NCBI GenBank assembly: GCA_000182565.2
Contig: KQ257455.1
Source: Spizellomyces punctatus DAOM BR117
Lineage: Eukaryota
Strand: one strand, 5' to 3'
Length of the DNA: 20,000 nucleotides
The notes below the pieces were generated by a model. It did not search any database. It saw only the letters and a list, made by a program, of their open reading frames with translations, and was not told the DNA's origin. How positions within the stretch are numbered: the stretch's first letter is position 1; every line of letters starts with the position of its first letter. This document shows, in pieces, positions 5,225-18,594 of this stretch. Made by a program: the position numbers and the translations under genes.

Positions 5225-8036
5225 ATGATGCAAAAGTACATTCCACTTGCAACGGGAGTCATGCTCCCGATTGCAACGGCACTCAACACTCAGTCGCTGA
5301 TTGTCGCCGGCTGGCTGTACGAAGAAAAGCTATCGCACGACTATCCGTTCTATGAATCCTTGGTCCGCCCACATAAACACCGTCTTGTTTACTACAAGCC
5401 CTCGGTCGTCTTCGTGCTCTCTGCGATATCCCTCGGCTTTGGCTTGCTGAGTGTCATTACTCTCTTTGTGCGCATGCTAGAGTATGCCTCCATGTTTCTG
5501 TCATCATTTGGATGCCGTTGCATTTATTGTTGACCTTACAGGAAGAAGATCAAATGGTGCACACGACTAATGATAGCCGGGGCGGCTGGACAAGGTAGCT
5601 TTGCTTCCTTCGGCCACTTGTTGCTAGCAAGGCTCAATTTACATTGTCTTGCCTAGGATTATTTGCCTCAGCCGCAGTTATTGCCTTCATCATCTGGAAA
5701 TCCCTAACATATGTGCATGGGAAATACACTGAAGGATGTTTTTACAGCGCAATATCTGCCGCTATGTCGATAACGGTGGCTCTGCTATCTGCATATCATC
5801 ATCATCTGAACCGCCGGCAACTCTATTCCTATACTCTCTATGAACTCTCCCCTTCGCAACGCCAGTTGATTCTGCTTCTGATCACGTCCATTAGTTATAC
5901 GTTCGCGATGGGTGCTGCTTATGCTGGCTTAGAAGGATGGTATGTTGTTCACACGTGAGGACCAATGCTGAAACTGAACGGATACCTAATGGGCGATACT
6001 TTTAGGGATTTTGACGATGGTGTTTATTGTATGTGCTTGGGGCGTCTTCCACACGCGGGATGCAACACACTCAATTGCAGTTCTCCACAGGGTGTGTGTC
6101 AACACTCGCAACCATCGGGTTCGGGGATTTGGTGCCACAATCCATCACGGGTAAAGTGACCCTTCCCCTTGCGGCGTCCTGTGGGATTGGTATACTTGCT
6201 GCTAGCATCTACGCGATCCGGCAGGTTGCTCTTGAGCTTCTGACACATCGACTGGCCAGCGAATACTCAAGGTCGTTCGGAATTGCCAAGGAATATGTGC
6301 CCACAGAGGACCATTCACCCGAAGAAGGACGTCCCTTGTCGTCATCGCCCATTATGCACCAGTCGTGGGACATGTTTCCGCAGAGCGAAGGATCAGTTTC
6401 GCGACGGCGATCCATCGGGGCCGCGCCCCAGACAAACCAGCGTTGCCGTCCTGCGGCTCCTCAAAGCATACCAAGATCTAGAGCATCTGAACCACACGTG
6501 GCCTTTTCTGCACCGAACACTAACATACTGCTGAATACTGGCCACAGCGTCTATGAGCCAACTCCCCACAGCAATGAAAGGCCATCAAACATCAGATACT
6601 CCGCACCTGCGGTGGCTGAATCGTTTGGGCTACCCTTAGGTCGATCGTTCACGACGTCTGTTCTCGAAGCTCGCACGATGGTTATTTCTCGGGGCGCCCA
6701 TCTGCCACAACTGACCATTGTAGCTCCTGCGGATGTGCGGCGTCGGCAGGTGGTTGAAGCTACTCGGAGGACCTTTCGCCAGCAGATTACCTTTGCCATT
6801 CTAGCTGTCATAGCCAACATGTCAGTTTTTGGAGGCGTCTTCTCCCTCTTTGAGGGTTGGCATTTTTTTGAAGGTACATTTTTTAAGTCACCAACTTTCT
6901 TGCTTGCTCTCGATTTATAGTAGTTGTCCTACAGGTCTTTATTTCACATTCTGCGCTTTAACCACAATAGGTTTGTTTTCACAGCAGTTGGAGTGATCAA
7001 CAACTATATTGCATGGATGGCTGATATGCATGTTGTGACAGGTTACGGAGATTACACCTTGTCTACGGTGCAAAGCCGTTCCATCTTCATGTGGTTTCTT
7101 TATATTGGCATTGGCAGCGTCACCTACATGTTCTCATTAATGTCGGAGCGGGCTCTCGACCAGTGGACGGTGACGGTCAATAAGATTGAAAACAGAGTGG
7201 ACCGATATGAACGCAAGGCAAAGTTAAAGAAGTTATATAAAAATAAAGGGCTTACGCTGGGCGTGCGAAGACGTGCTCGAAAAGAGGAGAGTACAGATCA
7301 AGAGAGCGAGCTACTTGGAGAGCGCGAGCCGGTTACACGTGCGCGGCAATCTGATGATGAACACCCGCTTACCAGCGAATCTGAGTTCTACCTCTCAGAT
7401 GCGCAATCCCAAGAGCATCTGCCTGCGGAGGCACCCGTTTGGGAAGGCATAGGACGCCCAAGGGCAAGTCCTCAGCCGCTTGAGGCCGAGGAGACTTCTA
7501 AGGAAGTGGAAACACCTGAAGTAGCCGGCGAACTGGAATTAGAGACGACACCGCTGCTCAGTCCCACAATCGAACCCCCAGTCGTTGGGTCGGTTCGGAT
7601 TGAGCCGCCGTCCCCATCGACCTTGTGGGGACGCTCGAGAGGGCCGCCTCTCCTTTATCGTACCGGGACGGTGGATTCAACCGCGAGTTCCTTACGGGGA
7701 GTCGTACGGTTGGAGGCTCCTGCCACCTCATTGCCGCCGTCTGACATTGGAAATTATCCTTCCTTCCGTCGGGTTGAAACCACACCAACTGGCACTGAAG
7801 GCCGACGTGGCACGGAGACTCGTTTCCTGAGTACTGGTGTGCCTATAGATCACTATTCAACCGACGAAGAAGAGTTTGAAGTTACGGGCAGATCCGTGAG
7901 GATGTTCTCCGGGCGTAAAAGTCGTCGCTCCAGCATTGTATCAAGAATAGTTCAACAACCTATTTCAGCGGATGCGGCCTTTGACCGAGAAGAATTGAAT
8001 ATCTCCTGCCCAGACGATGAGCGAGCAGCTGTATAG
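5225..8036 (+). CDS. TOK1: TOK-family tandem-pore (8 TM, 2 P-loop) outward-rectifying K+ channel, ~809 aa
   Basis: Exons 5225-5481, 5542-5594, 5657-5939, 6006-6028, 6091-6873, 6935-6970, 7042-8036. Pore 1 is WCVSTLATIGFGD and pore 2 is YFTFCALTTIGYGD (split by an intron). Five hydrophobic segments precede P1, two lie between the pores and one follows P2, matching fungal TOK topology. Confidence 0.9.
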
Positions 8037-9227: not shown

Positions 9228-10414
9228 ATGTCCACCGGCAACGACATCCTGGAACCCCTCTATCCGTACTTGGCGCAGGTGCAATCTTTAGCCTCCCCGT
9301 ACATCTCGCAACTGGAGACGGTCGCGGCACCCCTCATCCAAGATGCAAAGATACGCGTTGCTGATCTACAAGAGCTTGCAGCTCCTTACGTTGGCCCACT
9401 ATTTGAATACGCCGAGCGGGTTGAGGATGCGCTACCTACCTTCTCGTACCCTATCGCCTATGTTGCGGCGGCAGCCATTGTGCTACACGTGGCCAACTAT
9501 AATTTGACCGCTCAGTTGGAGTACCATACTAGAATTTTCACCAAGGTGTGTTGACGAGCATGGAGAAAAGCTATTGTGACGTCGTTATTTCCAGCCCATC
9601 GAGAACGCAGAGATCTGTAAATGTGGTATTGATGCAAACTAAACGGCAATCTTGCAGATCTTTCGTTCGCCCGCGGTATACTTGTACGCTCTGTACCTCA
9701 TTGCCTCCGCATTGGTCCGCGACCATTACGTTATGCAAGCAGTCGAAGGGGATGTGAACTCGGTATGGCGAATGCGAAGAAGCTGGTCTCCGTTATTTTC
9801 TCAACTGATTAACTCCCCGATGCCTCGCTAGTACATCTTGTTCTCCAAGGAAGCCGCAAAACTCATTGGACACACCTTAATCACGTTTGGGATACTTTTG
9901 AATCTTTGGACCCTGAAGGTATTTTGCAACCGTCACGCCGATATTGTCTAAGCAGATCAATTTGACGCCCATTCCCGACAGGCTCTTGGAATCAAGGGCA
10001 TGTACAACGGTGACAGCTTTGGACACTTGATGGACGCCCCTGTATCTGGTGGCCCGTACCGTTTCTTCAACGATCCTCAATATGTTGGCACAACTCTTGC
10101 TTTGTTGGGATACGCGGTCAAGTGCCAGTCATGGACCGGATATGGTAAGTGCAGCACTCTAAGATGCCCTCTTGGACGGTGGATACTAACAACCCGTCCT
10201 TCGCTAAATGCAGTGTTGACGGCGGTTCTATTCACTACCTTTTGGATTTCAGTCAAATTCGTAGAGGTAAGCTGAAAGTGGCGATAGGGACGTTAAGACA
10301 ACCACCAATTCTTTCCTTCAGGGTCCCCATATGAATCGTATCTACGCGAATAAAGGAAAGAAAACAACGGCAGCGCAAGGATCTAAGAAAACGCCTAGGA
10401 GAAAGTTTGACTAA
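9228..10414 (+). CDS. OPI3: Phospholipid N-methyltransferase (OPI3/PEMT family), ~272 aa, with N-terminal extension
   Basis: Exons 9228-9545, 9658-9762, 9832-9918, 9982-10144, 10214-10266, 10322-10414. EYHTRIFTK, LVRDH, ALGIKGMYNGDSFGHLMDAPVSGGPYRFFNDPQYVGTTL and VEGPHMNRIY resemble Opi3/PEMT motifs (ALG.TGTYLGDYFGILM...FPF...NPMY.GST; EEPFT..IY). The basic C-terminus RRKFD resembles an ER-retrieval signal. Confidence 0.85.
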
Positions 10415-12267: not shown

Positions 12268-15200
12268 ATGAGCGCCTCGGGAGACCACCAGCTCGGCGTT
12301 ACTCCCCGCTCCTATCAGTATGAAGTGTTGGATAAGGCAATCGATAGCAATGTCATTGCCGTGCTCGACACTGGAAGTGGGAAGGTGAGTGCTTGAAAAC
12401 CAGTCACGTCAAACTGAGTACTTGGAATGTCTGAAACCCAAACGTAGACCTTGATATCGGTTATGTTGATAAGTCACATGGCTCGCCTCGAGCAAAAACG
12501 CAGGGTATGAAAATACTGATTGACCTGTTTTTAGTGAATGCGTTGCCTCTGATCTACATACACTGTAGACTGAAAACCCAGGTTTACGGACTAGGCTTAG
12601 TGTCTTCCTTGTTCCTTTGGTACCGCTGGTTCTGCAGCAGGAGGAATACGTCAGGAAACACTGTAATCTTAAAGTCAAACACTATTATGGAGCAATGCGT
12701 GTGGATGACGTGAGTCTGAACCTCGAGAGGGAGGATTTTGATGTATCAATAAATTGCGGCACATTGACAGTGGTCTGAAGAACGATGGAAAAATGAAGTC
12801 AGCGAAGCAGAGGTGATGGTTATGACAGCGGACATTTTCAGAAATATGCTGTGCCGTGCGTATATTGCAATGGAACAGGTTGGTTTGGCGCATCATTGTT
12901 GAATCTGCCTCTTATTGAAACTTGTGTTTATTAGATAAATCTCATTATTTTTGATGAGTGTCATCATGCACGTAAAAACCACGCATACAATCAGATCATG
13001 GGAATTCATTATAAACAATGTCGAGAGTCAGGGAGGCCGAAGATTTTTGGCATGACAGCATCGCCGACATTTGGCAAGGAAAGCTACCAAAGCTCTATAA
13101 TGTACGGAAGTCTATGAATTCATTCTTGAATCACAGCTTATGGATGAGATTTTAGGCAAATCGAAGGAAATCTTGATGCAAGAGCAGTCACGGTAGATGT
13201 TGCAGAGGTATCCCCGCATGTACCGCGTCCAAAGCAAACAGTCGTCTACTACAAAGGCACGGAGCGTGCTGATCCACCGGCTCTTTATTATCTTGTGAAA
13301 CAATATGGCGGGCCTGCGGAAGAGGAATTGGCGGCTGCTCTCAAGAAGTCCCTTATCCTCTGCGAAGAACTGGGAACATGGTGTGCAGCACGGGCGTTAG
13401 AAATGGCGGTTCTGGCTACAGATGCACGACTTAAACGGTCTCGTGTCCTTCAATGGCACAATGGTCGACCGACAGAGGAATGCTCTGAACCGAAGGAGTT
13501 GGAAAAAGTTGCCGCTTTTGCCAACCTCAAGAGCTATGTTATGACGTCCCCATTTTGGTTCGATAACTTGTCTTCTCCGACTGCAAATGACCTGTCGCCG
13601 AAAGTCATGACTCTTCTAAAGGTGCTTGAAGAGTATCGTAACTGCAAACATTTCTGCGGAATTGTTTTTGTTCAGCGCAGAGCTACGGCACGTGTCCTCG
13701 ATCTCGTCATCAAGAGATGGAAAGGTTTAGAATTTGTAAAATCCGATATCTTGGTTGGTCATGGAATCGGATCCGCCAGTCCAGCAGACGTAAACCTACG
13801 CGTGCAGCAGCAAAGGAAGATTGTTCAATCGTTCCAGAAAGGCGAAACAAATCTAATTATTGCAACCAGGGTAAGCTTCCCAGAAACAATCCGTGGTCTT
13901 CCTGTAATAATAACGTTCTTTCTTAGGTTGCCGAAGAAGGCCTTGATATCAGAGCTTGTAATTTAGTCATACGGTGAGGATCATGCACACGACATTGCAT
14001 AGACGAGGAACTGACCGACAATCGGCTAGATTTGATGTTTGCATCACCTTAACGAATTATATACAATCCAGAGGGCGGGCAAGGCGCATGGATTCAGAAT
14101 TCATTACGCTCTGCAATCGCAACAGTCCCTCCGAGGCCGTGCAGCTTGCAGAGTTGCAACGAGAAGAGCAATTAATGCGGGCTGCTCTCCAAACGCGAGA
14201 ATCCCTGACAGGCTCCATGGAGTCAGCTGTACAACCGTCTGACGAGGAAATCTATACAGTCGAATCCACTGGTGCTTCCGTGACACTGTACACGTCAATC
14301 GGAATGTTATATAACTATTGTGCCCTCTTACCTACAGACAGCGTTGGTGCATTGACACCCACCTTTCAAATCGCCCCGGTACCCGATTTGGCCTATGGGC
14401 CGTGTGAGTTTAAGGCAAGCGTGACGCTCCCGCCCAGTGTGCCAATTGAGGCTCGTTATGCGACCAGCAAACTTTGTGCCCGCAAAGCTCTGGCAAAGCA
14501 ATGGGCTGCGTTGGAGATCATAAAGAGGTTGCACGCAGCTGGAGAATTGGACGACCGATTGAAGCCGATCAAAGCCGTATCTCAAATTGCGGGATTTGAC
14601 GAAATGGTTGAACCTGTGGGAACCGGTGGCGATACTGAGCGAAAAAAGAGGCAAATCCTCGAATTTCGGATGAAAACACCGGTTTTCTGGAGGGGTTCTT
14701 GGAAGCCTCATCAGCCGACATGGTTAACCTTAGTTCGGATGCATGTCGATAATGGAAATAAACCAACATCAGATATTGGACTGCTGACTGTTGGTGAAGG
14801 TCCAATGCAGAAGGGAATTTTTCATATGTCGATTGCAAACAGGTTAACCGCGGTTGAAATTCAGTCGTCCAGATGCCCCCTTGATTTGGATTTGCCAACG
14901 CTAGCATCCGTAAAGAGGTTTCACGTGGCACTCTTCAAGGGCATATTGCGGAGTGATGTCCAAGATGAAGCGGAATGGGCGACCATCGTAGTACCGGTAG
15001 TGGAGACACTGACGGATTGGACCGCCTTGGGGGATGCATTCGATCCTCGAGCAGTCATTGATTGGGAAAGCGTCGCTTTTGCTTCGCGAGCTCAGCAGCC
15101 ATTGCTTGACCAAGATGGGAACTTGACTTGCGCGAACCTTCAAGCTGTGGTTCTACACAGCCGCGTCCACCATAATCGGCTATACTTGGTTGATAAGGTC

Positions 15201-17034
15201 CATGATCATTTGACACCGTACAGCGATTGGCCGATAGAGGAAGGAAAGTTTCCAACACTTGGACGGTATTATGAAGCTCGTTTAAAATATCCGGAACCAA
15301 TTCACACCGCACAACCGATAATTAAAGCTCACCGTTTACCTTACATTACGCAAACGACAATGGAAAAGCAACCTACTTCGGCTGCCTACCTCATTCCCCA
15401 ATGCTGCACTATCTACCCGATACCGGCGCACATTATGCGAGGTACTGCTCTGCATTTACCCATACTCCTTCAGCATTTGCAACATCGATTGCTGGCTTCG
15501 GATCTAAAATACTACGGGTTTGACGATTTCATGTCAGACGACTATCTGCACGGTAGCGTTGAAGATCTCCAGGCTGCGCTAACTGCCCCTGTAGCAGATC
15601 CTACAGTCAATTACGAGCGCTTAGAAACGTTTGGAGACAGTTTCCTGAAAATTCATCAGTCCCTGCACTTGTATGCATCTTACCCAACATGTCATGAAGG
15701 ACGCTTAAGTCTCATGAGAAACGCACTGGAGCGCAACACTGCACTGAGAGCATGTGCTATGAAACTCGGGTTGGAAGGCTATGTCTTGGGAACAGGGCTG
15801 TCGAGACGGGAGTGGACACCTCCAGAGCAGCTAGGAGGTGGAGGATCTGTTCATAAATTGAGCGACAAGACTGTGGCCGATGTTGTAGAAGCTATAATCG
15901 GAGCATGCCTATGCGGAGGTGGCATACGGGGAGGAGCTGGCGCTGTCGTCAAACTTCTTGGACATGGATATGAATCTGACTGGAGCATTTACTCCCAAAA
16001 ACTTGCGGAAAGCCGGCAGTCTCGGACTTTCACAGTAATGGAGCCAATCGTTCGGCAGGTGGAACAAGCGATCGGTTATCAATTCAAGGACATGACTCTT
16101 GCTATTGAAGCGTTAGTTCATGCGAGTGAAGCTCGTGCTGTAGCTGAAATAGGATCGTATCAACGTCTCGAGTTCCTTGGTGCGTAGTGAAGAAAGGTTT
16201 GGATGCGGCTTATGACAACTCACCAAAAGCTCATTGGCGCTGTAGGCGATGCGGCACTGGGATTTGTTGTTACTCGACACTTGTACGCAATCAGCCCTCC
16301 CCTGTCACCTGCTGAGCTCTCAGAATTCCGGTCCGAGTTGGTAAACAACCAATTCCTCTCATGGGTTTCGTGGACACTGGGTCTCACGAAACACATACAA
16401 TACAATGATGCGGCTCTGGAAAGTGCCATCGCGCATTTTGGTCATCAGATGGAACGCGTGACGGGTGGGGTACGCACACCTAGATTCAAAACATCCGCGT
16501 TAAAAGGACCCCTCTATTGGAAAGAGCTCGACGCGGCTCCAAAGTCGACAGGGGATGTATATGAGGCGATACTCGGTGCAGTGTTTGTTGATTCAGGGTT
16601 CGATGTCGAAGCTCCTTGGGGTGTCGTGCTACGTACTTTGATAGACCCGTGGTGGCACCTCTTTCAGGAGGCTGGATGCGGGACAGCTCAATCCAAATGC
16701 GTGCGGTCTGCGGATGAGACGAATCCTATCGGCGAGGCATATGAGTGGACGCAGAAGATGAGATGCGAGCGGTTGCAATTTACGTATGGTTCCAGTTGAT
16801 TTTCTATTTTCTCAGAGGTGGCAGTCAAAGACTAATTATGACGAAACTTTGCCCAGCATCGAAATCGATGAGGAAGCCGGTGTAATTAGATGCACATGCA
16901 CGTTTCATGATGTGCCTATTGGATGTGGTGAAGGCAAGAACAAGAAAATCGCTAAGCGCATAGCGGCAGAACACGCCCTGACCTTTCTGAGGTCGATCGA
17001 TCGTTGTGCATGTCACCAGGAGGGTAAAAATTAA
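12268..17034 (+). CDS. DCL: Dicer-like RNase III (DExD helicase - DUF283 - PAZ - RNase IIIa - RNase IIIb - dsRBD), ~1405 aa
   Basis: Exons 12268-12384, 12448-12504, 12569-12709, 12771-12878, 12935-13101, 13156-13870, 13927-13973, 14030-16179, 16246-16783, 16857-17034. Helicase motifs [39 protein letters not shown] and [12 protein letters not shown]283-like [13 protein letters not shown]-like LTPYS..YY..QP..LIPQCC; RNase IIIa [18 protein letters not shown]; RNase IIIb [25 protein letters not shown]; ds[21 protein letters not shown]. Confidence 0.96.
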
Positions 17035-17091
17035 TACTTCATGCATTTAAGAAGAGCTTGAGACTGGCGTATTACAATCCTATTCCCAAGC

Positions 17092-17173
17092 GACATTCAC
17101 ATCGTAATGGGGGCCGCTCAGCTATGGGGCGGATGCCGTCATAGCTGAGCGGGCCTGTTACGATGTGGATGTC
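17092..17173 (+). ncRNA. Long imperfect inverted repeat / pre-miRNA-like hairpin in the Dicer 3' UTR region
   Basis: Arms 17092-17130 and 17135-17173 with a GGAT loop. About 37 bp: 20 bp (3 G-U), a 2x1 internal loop, 13 perfect bp (CCGCTCAGCTATG/CATAGCTGAGCGG), then 4 bp with one bulge. The inverted repeat is certain; RNA function is inferred. Confidence 0.7.
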
Positions 17174-17291
17174 ATCTGTAAATGTGGTTTGGGGCGCATG
17201 TAGAGCTCACTATATGATAATATTTAAATTGCGTTTTGACAGAGATGAGGATAAATAAGATGGGGATTTTCTATTTGGTCACGTATCCACC

Positions 17292-18594
17292 TCATGCTTT
17301 CAAGGTCCATGCCAATTTCTTGCCAGCCAAAAACGGAACAACCGATCGCTCATGTCCTTCGTCGTCGGTGTATGTGTATTCTTTGGGAACCACATATTCT
17401 TGTTTGAAGAGGGTCGCTACCGGTGCCGTAGATGCCCGTGTCGGCAGTTTGTAGAACGCTCGTCCGTTTTCGCAAGCAAATGTCTGCAGTTTGTCCAATG
17501 CACCAAAAGATTCTAAAATAGTGGCCAGGTAGGGAAGAACAAGGGGCGTTGTGAATACTCCAGCGACTGCAGTGCTGGACTCTTTGGTATGGCGGGGATG
17601 TGGCGCAGAGTCTGTTCCCAGGAAGAACCGCGGATGACCTTCCTTCACAATGGCTCGTAATGCTTCGCGATCATGTGGATACTTTGCAACAGGTTTGCAA
17701 AAGTGATGACATTGGCCGGCCCAATCATCAACGATTAAACTGAGGTGGTGGACGGTAATACTACAACCGACAGTTGCACCAAGAGACTTCACCTAAGATC
17801 ATGGACGTAAATATGATACTAAGAATTTTCAATGACGTAAATACGGATTTATACCATGTCGACGGCGGCCTTTGTTGTTGCATGTTCCAGTACGATACGC
17901 AGGTTGGGGAAGTCGCGATGCAATTGCTCCAAATGCTTCAAGAACCGCTCCTCCGCATTCATTACGCATACACCCTATCATTTGTCCATGTCAGTCACAA
18001 TGTTTTCTGGAATGAATCTGAAGTCCCTTTTGCCCGACCTCTTCTGCATCGCTTGGGATCTCTCCGTGCAGATTCAAAACCATGTCGACCTCCTCCATGG
18101 CCCTGAAAACTTCATAATATGCGGTGTAGCTTTCAATACCACTGTCGCTATTCGTGGTAACGCCGCGAGGATAAGACTTTACACCTAGAAGCGATCCTCC
18201 ATGAGCCAGTGCTACCGAGACAACGACTTTACTAGCGTACCCGCGACTCCAGCTTTGGCTGCCTTGCGAATTTCTTCCGGAGTCAACTCAGGTGTCAAGT
18301 AGAGTGTCATAAGGAAGTTTACGTTTGGCGCCAGTGCCTCAAGCTCTGCTTTGTACGCAAGCGCTTGTTCGGTGGTGGTCACCGGCGGTTTCAAGTTTGG
18401 CTAGCAATGAGGCAAGTATGAGGCATGAATAGCTGATATAAGGAGCACGTTCATGCAGCGAGTCTTACCATCACATAGGCAGTTGCCACTCCACTTGTTT
18501 TCAACAACGGAGTAACTGCCCGCATGAGGGCACCTTGCCTCAGGTGCGTGTGGAAGTCGTCAGCCAAAGGGACGCTCAAAGTTGTGATTGACAT
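17292..18594 (-). CDS. URA4: Dihydroorotase (homodimeric, URA4/PyrC type II), 5 exons
   Basis: Spliced N-terminus MSITTLSVPLADDFHTHLRQG...AYVM|PNLKPP, then GVKSYPRGVTTNS, LNLHGE, IVLEHATT, HHFCKPVAK and FFLGTDSAPH. Stop TGA at 17294-17292. Confidence 0.96.

What the first reader, a model, noticed from the sequence alone, without database searches (positions are those of the whole stretch)
17092..17173. Pre-miRNA-like hairpin just downstream of the Dicer stop codon: candidate Dicer autoregulatory element
Seen: an 82-nt, ~37-bp hairpin starting 58 nt after the Dicer TAA, by far the longest inverted repeat I found in the window. All four non-Watson-Crick pairs are G-U on the Dicer-sense strand and would be A-C mismatches on the other strand. 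A basal extension is possible (TCCCAAGC 17084-17091 with GTTTGGGG 17187-17194). No target-site duplication is visible. Established: RNase III-family systems autoregulate through hairpins in their own or partner mRNAs (E. coli rnc, Drosha/DGCR8, Arabidopsis DCL1/miR838). Inference: this Dicer cleaves its own 3' UTR and/or yields a milRNA, a feedback loop I do not know to be described in fungi.
Basis: partly seen in the sequence, partly recalled or inferred. Interest (0 to 1): 0.87.

Follow-up and report, generated by a model that had tools for sequence, protein, structure and literature searches.

The report
Strong hairpin in chytrid Dicer 3' UTR
The Dicer messenger RNA of the soil chytrid Spizellomyces punctatus carries a single-copy, very stable 37-base-pair stem-loop in its 3' untranslated region, which could let Dicer or a related enzyme cut its own message, though no cutting has been shown.

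Summary
Bases 17092-17173 fold into a 37-bp stem-loop (-62.9 kcal/mol, z -12.3). It is by far the strongest structure in the window. It starts 58 nt after the TAA of a complete Dicer gene, SPPG_03994 of Spizellomyces punctatus.

- Stranded RNA reads cover the Dicer-sense strand without a gap from the last exon through the hairpin to about 17260.
- Genomic reads show no excess depth over the hairpin (0.74x the flanks), so it is not a dispersed repeat.

The hairpin lies in a 257-nt tail-to-tail gap. The convergent gene is a more highly expressed dihydroorotase gene, whose poly(A) site is at 17201.

The core claim remains untested: self-cleavage, a small RNA product, and feedback. I could not obtain small-RNA data, DNA from a related species, or the whole genome.

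My estimates:
- RNase III-type cleavage feedback: about 0.38
- a neutral, young palindrome: about 0.33
- an element serving 3'-end formation of the convergent pair: about 0.12
- a transposon remnant: about 0.07

It is a well-founded, testable hypothesis in a transformable fungus, not a demonstrated mechanism.

The parts
12298..17034 (+). Dicer gene (helicase, Dicer_dimer, weak PAZ, RNase IIIa, RNase IIIb, dsRBD). It corresponds to SPPG_03994 of Spizellomyces punctatus DAOM BR117. The start given is where homology begins, not the start codon.
   Evidence: Pfam domains. tblastn of P0002 maps to 12298-16649. P0010 is 98% identical to the 737-aa ORF. The C-termini agree.
17032..17034 (+). Dicer stop codon TAA
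17035..17265 (+). Dicer 3' UTR. The 3' end is approximate, somewhere in 17240-17300.
   Evidence: Sense-strand RNA depth is 17-20 up to 17238, 8.0 at 17239-17269 and 0.39 at 17270-17300. No poly(A) loose end for this strand was among the rows shown.
17092..17173 (+). The 82-nt stem-loop: 37 pairs, -62.9 kcal/mol
17092..17111 (+). Lower stem, 5' arm. It forms 20 uninterrupted pairs with 17154-17173, three of them G-U.
17154..17173 (+). Lower stem, 3' arm
17114..17130 (+). Upper stem, 5' arm. It forms 17 pairs with 17135-17152, with a bulged G at 17138. The internal loop 17112-17113/17153 lies below it.
17131..17134 (+). Apical tetraloop GGAU
17135..17152 (+). Upper stem, 3' arm
17085..17091 (+). 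Possible basal extension, 5' side. It pairs with 17187-17193 across a 13-nt one-sided loop (17174-17186).
   Evidence: 111-nt context, -71.9 kcal/mol
17187..17193 (+). Possible basal extension, 3' side. It competes with a weak second hairpin at 17175-17243.
17201..17201 (-). Poly(A) site of the convergent dihydroorotase mRNA, 28 nt short of the hairpin
   Evidence: 9 reads carry a poly-T loose end lying before 17201
17212..17231 (.). A+T-rich block between the two 3' ends. It probably supplies the polyadenylation signals for both genes (inferred from sequence and from where the reads end).
17292..17792 (-). Last exon of a dihydroorotase gene, convergent with Dicer. Its stop codon is at 17292-17294.
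   Evidence: ORF. PDB dihydroorotase 6l0a matches at E 5.4e-36. Minus-strand RNA depth is 70-100.

Best explanation
The element is a single-copy inverted repeat. It is transcribed as part of the 3' UTR of the Spizellomyces punctatus Dicer mRNA, where it forms a 37-bp double-stranded stem capped by a tetraloop.

The most likely way it works is as a built-in double-stranded RNA substrate. An RNase III-class enzyme cuts the stem and separates the coding region from its poly(A) tail. Dicer itself is the obvious candidate, and a nuclear Rnt1-type RNase III is less likely. More enzyme activity would then mean less Dicer mRNA, which is negative feedback. A cut could also release one small RNA duplex from the 20-bp lower stem.

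Shown here:
- the structure and its rarity within the window
- its place after the Dicer stop codon
- sense-strand transcription running through it
- single copy number

Inferred, not shown:
- that the reads across it belong to the same molecules as the coding region
- any cleavage, any small RNA, and any effect on Dicer level
For: 1. The structure is far beyond chance: z -12.3, 0 of 200 shuffles fold as well. It is the extreme of 3984 sliding folds in the window.
2. It lies in the mRNA. In the stranded run X21, reads on the Dicer strand are continuous from the last exon (16836 onward) through the hairpin. Mean depth is 18.4 before it, 16.1 in it and 15.5 after it, up to about 17260. The strand calibration is internal: Dicer exon reads lie only on +, and dihydroorotase reads lie only on -.
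3. It is not a dispersed repeat:
   - DNA depth is 0.74x that of the flanks.
   - No other copy exists in the window.
   - A passage in PMC5751038 states that chytrids, including S. punctatus, hold very few DNA transposons.
4. The RNA fold is 12 kcal/mol better on the Dicer-sense strand, and all 4 non-Watson-Crick pairs are G-U on that strand.
5. A precedent for the logic is E. coli RNase III, which cuts a hairpin in its own mRNA as negative autoregulation (PMC3867540 passage). Drosha/DGCR8 and DCL1/miR838 are recalled, not checked here.
6. Fungi lack Drosha and Pasha (PMC6206976 passage). That leaves Dicer and Rnt1-type enzymes as the double-strand-specific nucleases available.
Against: - No cleavage evidence exists. 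In X21 no place was listed where many molecules begin or end, and poly(A)-linked reads cross the hairpin intact. This library would not capture cut products, so the point is weak.
- The stem has a tight 4-nt loop and no free end, which is not the preferred entry for end-measuring Dicers (established knowledge, recalled).
- No conservation data could be obtained, so a young neutral palindrome is not excluded.
- The G-U asymmetry is statistically modest, at p about 0.02-0.17.
- There is no match to any known miRNA family. The best is mir-512 at 21.4 bits against a gathering score of 94.
- Selection effect: a scan of many windows will meet a few hairpins next to RNA-processing genes by chance.
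Confidence: 0.38

Rival explanations
1. It is a neutral, evolutionarily young palindrome. A single replication error, such as a template switch or inverted duplication, copied about 40 nt in reverse complement into the Dicer 3' UTR. The copy is tolerated, is carried along in the mRNA, and has no selected function. Its position next to Dicer is coincidence.
For: - It is single copy and has no transposon hallmarks.
- The arms are still about 85-90% alike, with only a few differences.
- Template switching is described as a source of perfect hairpins and even of new miRNA genes. For PMC10710096 I saw only the search listing and the start of the abstract.
- mRNA carrying the intact hairpin is readily seen.
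- No conservation or small-RNA evidence supports a function.
Against: - Falling in the roughly 230-nt UTR of the Dicer gene is unlikely by chance if such hairpins are rare. This window holds none elsewhere in 20 kb.
- The arm differences favour pairing on the Dicer-sense strand.
- A 37-bp perfect-like stem in an mRNA of a Dicer-bearing cell is expected to meet that enzyme anyway (inference).
Confidence: 0.33
2. It is an element serving the convergent gene pair rather than Dicer feedback. The stem-loop, or the DNA palindrome, marks the boundary between the Dicer and dihydroorotase transcription units. It stops read-through from the strongly expressed dihydroorotase gene into antisense Dicer, or it helps 3'-end formation.
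For: - The two stop codons are only 257 nt apart.
- The dihydroorotase poly(A) site at 17201 lies 28 nt before the hairpin.
- Minus-strand depth falls from 47 (17208-17238) to 13, 11.6, 4.4 and 3.3 across the hairpin, and is 0 in every bin to the left of 17084.
- The minus strand also folds strongly, at -50.9 kcal/mol.
Against: - Hairpin-dependent termination is not an established mechanism for RNA polymerase II (recalled).
- Minus-strand reads confined to the palindrome may be mislaid reads or snap-back artefacts of cDNA synthesis (inference).
- The fold is better on the Dicer strand.
- Most dihydroorotase transcripts already end at 17201, before the hairpin.
Confidence: 0.12
3. It is a remnant of a miniature inverted-repeat or foldback transposon that inserted into the UTR.
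For: The whole element is an inverted repeat of MITE-like size.
Against: - There is no excess genomic read depth, at 0.74x the flanks. Only 6 of 142 DNA reads are below 99% likeness.
- No second copy or fragment exists in the window.
- No target-site duplication is visible.
- No match was found in viral contigs or prokaryote genomes.
- Chytrids are reported to have very few DNA transposons (PMC5751038 passage).
- Copies below about 88% likeness would have been missed.
Confidence: 0.07

Closest known systems
E. coli rnc operator (rncO): RNase III cuts a hairpin in its own mRNA
   Same: A double-strand-specific RNase III-family enzyme whose own mRNA carries a strong hairpin in an untranslated region. 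Cleavage would destabilise the message and give negative feedback (PMC3867540 passage).
   Different: The rnc hairpin is in the 5' UTR of a bacterial mRNA and is irregular, and decay proceeds through RNase E. Here the hairpin is in the 3' UTR of a eukaryotic Dicer, is near-perfect, and cleavage is not shown.
Drosha cleavage of hairpins in DGCR8 mRNA (animals).
   Same: Pre-miRNA-like hairpins in the mRNA of a small-RNA-biogenesis factor are cut by the RNase III enzyme of the same pathway to hold its level steady.
   Different: Those hairpins lie in the 5' UTR and coding region of the partner protein's mRNA, not in the nuclease's own mRNA. Fungi lack Drosha and Pasha (PMC6206976 passage).
Arabidopsis DCL1 intron-14 hairpin (miR838) and miR162 targeting of DCL1.
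   Same: A Dicer-family gene carries a Dicer-substrate hairpin within its own transcript.
   Different: That hairpin is intronic, so processing competes with splicing. It is a plant lineage and the small RNA was detected. Here the hairpin is in the mature mRNA's 3' UTR and no small RNA is known.
Yeast Rnt1p stem-loop substrates
   Same: A stem capped by a tetraloop with G at the second position. About 17 bp of stem lie below the loop, which is enough for a cut 14-16 bp from it (PMC3867540 passage; structure).
   Different: The consensus loop is [A/u]GNN and this loop is GGAU. The stem here is far longer than Rnt1p needs.
Fungal milRNA precursors (Neurospora type). Recalled.
   Same: A hairpin transcript in a Dicer-bearing fungus.
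   Different: Known milRNA loci are defined by sequenced small RNAs. None is available here, and a location in the Dicer mRNA itself turned up in none of my searches.

Membership tests
miRNA / milRNA precursor | Stable hairpin with a stem of 20 bp or more, better than shuffled sequence | tested here: met
   -62.9 kcal/mol, z -12.3, 37 pairs. MFEI is 1.31.
miRNA / milRNA precursor | Discrete 20-25-nt small RNA duplex from the arms with 2-nt 3' overhangs | not testable with these tools
   No small-RNA run was available. The one RNA run laid (X21) is a poly(A)-type library with reads up to 60 nt.
miRNA / milRNA precursor | Dicer-dependent accumulation | not testable with these tools
   Needs a mutant.
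miRNA / milRNA precursor | Match to a described miRNA family | tested here: not met
   The best Rfam match is mir-512 at 21.4 bits against a gathering score of 94, E 0.26. No match reached the gathering score anywhere in the window.
RNase III-family autoregulatory hairpin (rncO / DGCR8 / DCL1 type) | The hairpin is part of the transcript of the nuclease or its partner | tested here: met
   Continuous sense-strand RNA depth runs from the last Dicer exon through the hairpin to about 17260. That these reads belong to the same molecule as the coding region is inferred, because no long read was available.
RNase III-family autoregulatory hairpin (rncO / DGCR8 / DCL1 type) | The hairpin is cleaved by that nuclease | not testable with these tools
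   No degradome or in vitro data exist. No clustered molecule ends were listed in X21, but that library cannot see cut products.
RNase III-family autoregulatory hairpin (rncO / DGCR8 / DCL1 type) | mRNA level responds to enzyme activity | not testable with these tools
   Needs genetics.
RNase III-family autoregulatory hairpin (rncO / DGCR8 / DCL1 type) | Conservation of the hairpin in orthologous transcripts | not testable with these tools
   DNA of Spizellomyces sp. 'palustris', whose Dicer P0011 is 87% identical, could not be fetched. The metagenome scan gave only one distant locus, L001, at 35% identity with no inverted repeat.
MITE / foldback transposon | Several to many genomic copies | tested here: not met
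   DNA read depth in the hairpin bins is 4.54 against 5.96 overall. No other copy exists in the window.
MITE / foldback transposon | Target-site duplication flanking the inverted repeats | tested here: not met
   The flanks ...CCCAAGC and ATCTGTA... share no direct repeat.
Rnt1p-type RNase III substrate | [A/u]GNN tetraloop | tested here: not met
   The loop is GGAU. The consensus comes from a PMC3867540 passage.
Rnt1p-type RNase III substrate | At least 14-16 bp of stem below the tetraloop | tested here: met
   17 pairs with one bulge lie between the loop and the internal loop.
Template-switch palindrome | Near-perfect single-copy inverted repeat with a very short spacer | tested here: met
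Template-switch palindrome | A sister lineage keeps the ancestral sequence without the inverted copy | not testable with these tools
   No related genome was reachable.

The most novel reading that the evidence does not exclude
The Dicer of an early-diverging fungus measures its own activity by dicing a 37-bp stem-loop in the 3' UTR of its own mRNA. The cut removes the poly(A) tail and releases a milRNA-like duplex. This would be a self-contained Dicer feedback loop in a lineage without Drosha. The roughly 60-nt antisense overlap with the convergent dihydroorotase mRNA might reinforce it.
Probability: 0.25. Interest if true: 0.75.

Novelty: new variant of a known kind. Interest (0 to 1): 0.48.

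Why it matters
How cells set the level of Dicer is known in detail only for animals and plants. If this hairpin is cut by Dicer, it would be the first case in fungi of a Dicer mRNA carrying its own substrate. It would also be a minimal example of feedback in RNA silencing without a Microprocessor.

My literature searches found no description of small RNAs in Spizellomyces and none of a Dicer self-targeting hairpin in fungi. These were keyword searches of open-access papers and preprints, and supplements were closed.

S. punctatus can be transformed (recalled), so the hypothesis is directly testable. If the hairpin proves to be a neutral palindrome, it is still a documented case of a long perfect-like stem tolerated in the mRNA of the enzyme that destroys such stems.

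Tried and rejected

Searches that gave nothing useful:
- Run search: no RNA holder was listed by the index. RNA evidence came only from laying raw-read run X21, which carries the same species label.
- Known RNA families: nothing at the gathering score in the window. Only a chance-level mir-512 match was found. No tRNA was found.
Of 162 pattern matches it returned 1 confirmed locus, L001, at 35% identity. L001 has no inverted repeat and a long opposite-strand ORF over the match, so it is not a usable ortholog.
- Hairpin arms as DNA patterns: 0 matches in viral contigs and 0 in prokaryote genomes.
- Possible targets of hairpin-derived small RNAs within the window: apart from the hairpin's own two arms, there is nothing longer than 10 nt in antisense.

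Ideas considered and dropped:
- H/ACA snoRNA, with two hairpins. The first stem has no pseudouridylation pocket, there is no Rfam match, and the second hairpin is weak (z -2.15).
- An intron in the 3' UTR starting at GTAAATG (17178). No joint was listed and depth over 17177-17238 equals that of the flanks.
- The 15-nt identity between 17174-17188 and 9613-9627 (E 0.002). The second site is the 5' splice site of a 41-nt intron, so I read it as chance.

Literature: five searches found no paper on chytrid small RNAs or on a fungal Dicer self-hairpin. PMC12663654, on fungal Dicer proteins, has no occurrence of 'Spizellomyces' or 'autoregulat'.

Full report
**What is there.** Bases 17092-17173 read as an almost perfect inverted repeat. 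As RNA, the + strand folds into one stem-loop of -62.9 kcal/mol. Dinucleotide shuffles average -26.3 (sd 3.0), giving z -12.3, and 0 of 200 shuffles fold as well.

The fold has 37 pairs: 19 G-C, 14 A-U and 4 G-U. It consists of the following parts:
- a 20-bp lower stem (17092-17111 with 17154-17173)
- a 2x1 internal loop (17112-17113 opposite 17153)
- a 17-bp upper stem with one bulged G (17138)
- a GGAU tetraloop (17131-17134)

In a 111-nt context, seven more pairs form at the base across a 13-nt one-sided loop, reaching -71.9 kcal/mol and z -10.5. The opposite strand folds less well, at -50.9 kcal/mol, because the four G-U pairs become A-C mismatches there.

I folded every 90-nt window of both strands at 10-nt steps, 3984 folds in all. 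This site gave -64.4 against a mean of -18.8 (sd 5.7). The best unrelated site gave -42.2. The repeat finder lists no comparable close inverted repeat in the window.

**The genes around it.**
- The + strand ORFs upstream carry Dicer_dimer, a weak PAZ match, two RNase III domains and a dsRBD.
- A chytrid Dicer (P0002) maps by tblastn from 12298 to 16649.
- The 737-aa ORF is 98% identical to SPPG_03994 of Spizellomyces punctatus DAOM BR117 (P0010, 1405 aa). It is 87% identical to the Dicer of Spizellomyces sp. 'palustris'.
- The annotated protein ends ...HQEGKN, exactly as the window's last exon does before the TAA at 17032-17034. The hairpin therefore starts 58 nt after the stop.
- On the minus strand, the ORF 17292-17792 is the C-terminal part of a dihydroorotase (PDB 6l0a, E 5.4e-36).

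The two genes converge, and only 257 nt lie between their stop codons.

**Is it in the Dicer mRNA?** The run search listed no indexed RNA holder. It did offer raw-read runs with the same species label. I laid four runs on 16650-17550.

Run X21 is RNA; about 6 in 100 of the run was read and 603 reads were laid. It is stranded in practice. Reads over the Dicer exon lie only on +, and reads over the dihydroorotase exon lie only on -.

On the + strand:
- Depth rises from 1.1 at 16836-16866 to 17.4 at 17022-17052, the profile of a 3'-biased library.
- It then stays at 19.4, 17.4, 10.1, 20.9, 13.8 and 17.2 through and beyond the hairpin.
- It drops to 8.0 at 17239-17269 and to 0.39 at 17270-17300.
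- Means are 18.4 before the hairpin, 16.1 within it and 15.5 after it.

There is no step down before 17092, so a major poly(A) site upstream of the hairpin is not seen. The Dicer 3' UTR ends near 17240-17300, and the hairpin is inside it.

Three caveats apply. Reads are at most 60 nt, 565 of 603 are only partly laid, and no single molecule was shown to link the coding region to the hairpin. That link is inferred from unbroken same-strand coverage.

**The other strand.**
- Minus-strand depth is 70-100 over 17239-17455.
- Nine reads carry a poly-T loose end lying before 17201, which marks the poly(A) site of the dihydroorotase mRNA.
- The two mRNAs therefore overlap tail to tail by roughly 40-70 nt, from 17201 to about 17260.
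- Beyond 17201 the minus-strand depth falls to 13.4, 11.6, 4.4 and 3.3 across the hairpin. It is 0 in all 14 bins to the left of 17084.

This could mean that read-through ends at the hairpin. It could equally be mislaid or snap-back reads inside a palindrome, and I cannot tell which.

**Copy number.** Run X22 is genomic ChIP reads; about 56 in 100 of the run was read and 142 reads of 38 nt were laid.
- Summed depth is 3.5, 3.1 and 7.0 in the three hairpin bins. All 29 full bins average 5.96 (sd 2.6).
- The ratio of hairpin to flanks is 0.74.
- 136 of 142 reads are at least 99% alike, and none fits two places.

A family of copies at 88% likeness or more would have raised the depth, and it does not. 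ChIP depth is uneven, so this excludes many copies but not one or two more.

Other evidence on copies:
- The window holds no other copy or fragment.
- The flanks show no target-site duplication.
- Arm patterns find nothing in viral contigs or prokaryote genomes.
- A survey of fungal DNA transposons states that chytrids, S. punctatus among them, contain very few (PMC5751038 passage).

The whole genome could not be searched.

**What could not be tested.**
- No small-RNA or degradome run was available.
- The metagenome scan for orthologous loci returned one distant, unusable locus.
- DNA of the sister species could not be fetched.
- Rfam gives no family match.

Cleavage, small-RNA output, Dicer dependence and conservation therefore all remain open. 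X21 lists no place where many molecules begin or end. A poly(A)-linked library would not capture cut mRNA, so this counts for little.

**Weighing the strand asymmetry.** All four non-Watson-Crick pairs of the fold are G-U on the Dicer strand, which alone gives p = 1/16. The arms also differ by an internal loop, a bulge and the apex. A DNA-level alignment of the arms gives 3 transitions, 4 transversions and 2 gap columns. Depending on how the differences are counted, the chance of four or more G-U-compatible ones is about 0.02-0.17. Transcription-linked mutation bias on the sense strand would push the same way (inference). I treat this as a mild point in favour of selection on the sense RNA.

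**Explanations.** The best single mechanism, at about 0.38, is that the stem makes the Dicer mRNA a substrate of an RNase III-class enzyme, most plausibly Dicer itself. A cut would separate the coding region from its tail and give negative feedback.
- The logic is established for E. coli RNase III (PMC3867540 passage). It is also established, from recall, for Drosha/DGCR8 and DCL1/miR838.
- Fungi lack Drosha and Pasha (PMC6206976 passage).
- An Rnt1-type enzyme is possible, because 17 bp lie below a tetraloop with G at position 2. However, the loop GGAU does not fit [A/u]GNN.

The rivals are as follows:
- A neutral young palindrome made by template switching has about 0.33 (PMC10710096, listing and abstract start only).
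- A boundary or 3'-end element for the convergent pair has about 0.12.
- A transposon remnant has about 0.07.

**Why not higher.** The co-location with Dicer is striking if such hairpins are rare in this genome, and that is what the window suggests. But the genome-wide rate is unknown, and a scan of very many windows will meet a few such coincidences.

**Novelty.** If true, this is a new variant of a known kind: autoregulation of an RNase III family member through a hairpin in its own transcript. It would be in a fungal Dicer and in a 3' UTR. Five literature searches found no description of it and none of small RNAs in Spizellomyces. These cover only the held open-access library and preprints, and supplements were closed.

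**Verdict.**
- The mechanism is unproven.
- Interest is moderate.

Noticed in passing
window 17201-17265, both strands: The Dicer and dihydroorotase mRNAs overlap tail to tail by roughly 40-70 nt. The dihydroorotase poly(A) site is at 17201, and Dicer-sense reads run to about 17260. This is a natural antisense pair that could itself form double-stranded RNA involving the Dicer message.
   Followed up: partly
window 17084-17176, minus strand: Minus-strand RNA reads past the dihydroorotase poly(A) site decline across the hairpin (11.6, 4.4, 3.3) and are absent from every bin to the left of 17084. This is either read-through that stops at the hairpin, or mislaid or snap-back reads in a palindrome.
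   Followed up: no
window 17114: C is read as G in 3 of 4 plus-strand RNA reads of X21. No DNA read of X22 was counted at that place. The change would break the C17114-G17152 pair. It may be an artefact of laying reads in a palindrome.
   Followed up: no
window 17175-17243, + strand: A second, weak, G-U-rich hairpin lies directly after the first: -19.4 kcal/mol, z -2.15, with 8 of 200 shuffles as good. The opposite strand reaches only -4.4. It competes with the basal extension of the main hairpin.
   Followed up: partly
window 17174-17188 and 9613-9627: A 15-nt exact direct match (blastn-short E 0.002). The second copy spans the GTAAATG 5' splice site of a 41-nt intron. I read it as chance.
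   Followed up: partly
window 7551-7680, + strand: The next most structured stretch of the window, at -42.2 to -38 kcal/mol per 90 nt. It lies inside the ORF 6924-8036 in the most G+C-rich part of the window. Not examined further.
   Followed up: no
window 17127 (run X2 contig end): The only X2 contig laid on the stretch ends at 17127, next to the centre of the palindrome. This is the kind of break that palindromes cause in assemblies, so assemblies of relatives may be broken at such a site.
   Followed up: no
P0011 (Spizellomyces sp. 'palustris' Dicer), C-terminus; window 16784-16856: The annotated sister-species protein ends ...QFTYGSD and has no dsrm domain in its Pfam list. It seems to read into what is the last intron (16784-16856) in S. 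punctatus, so its dsRBD exon was probably missed by the annotation.
   Followed up: partly
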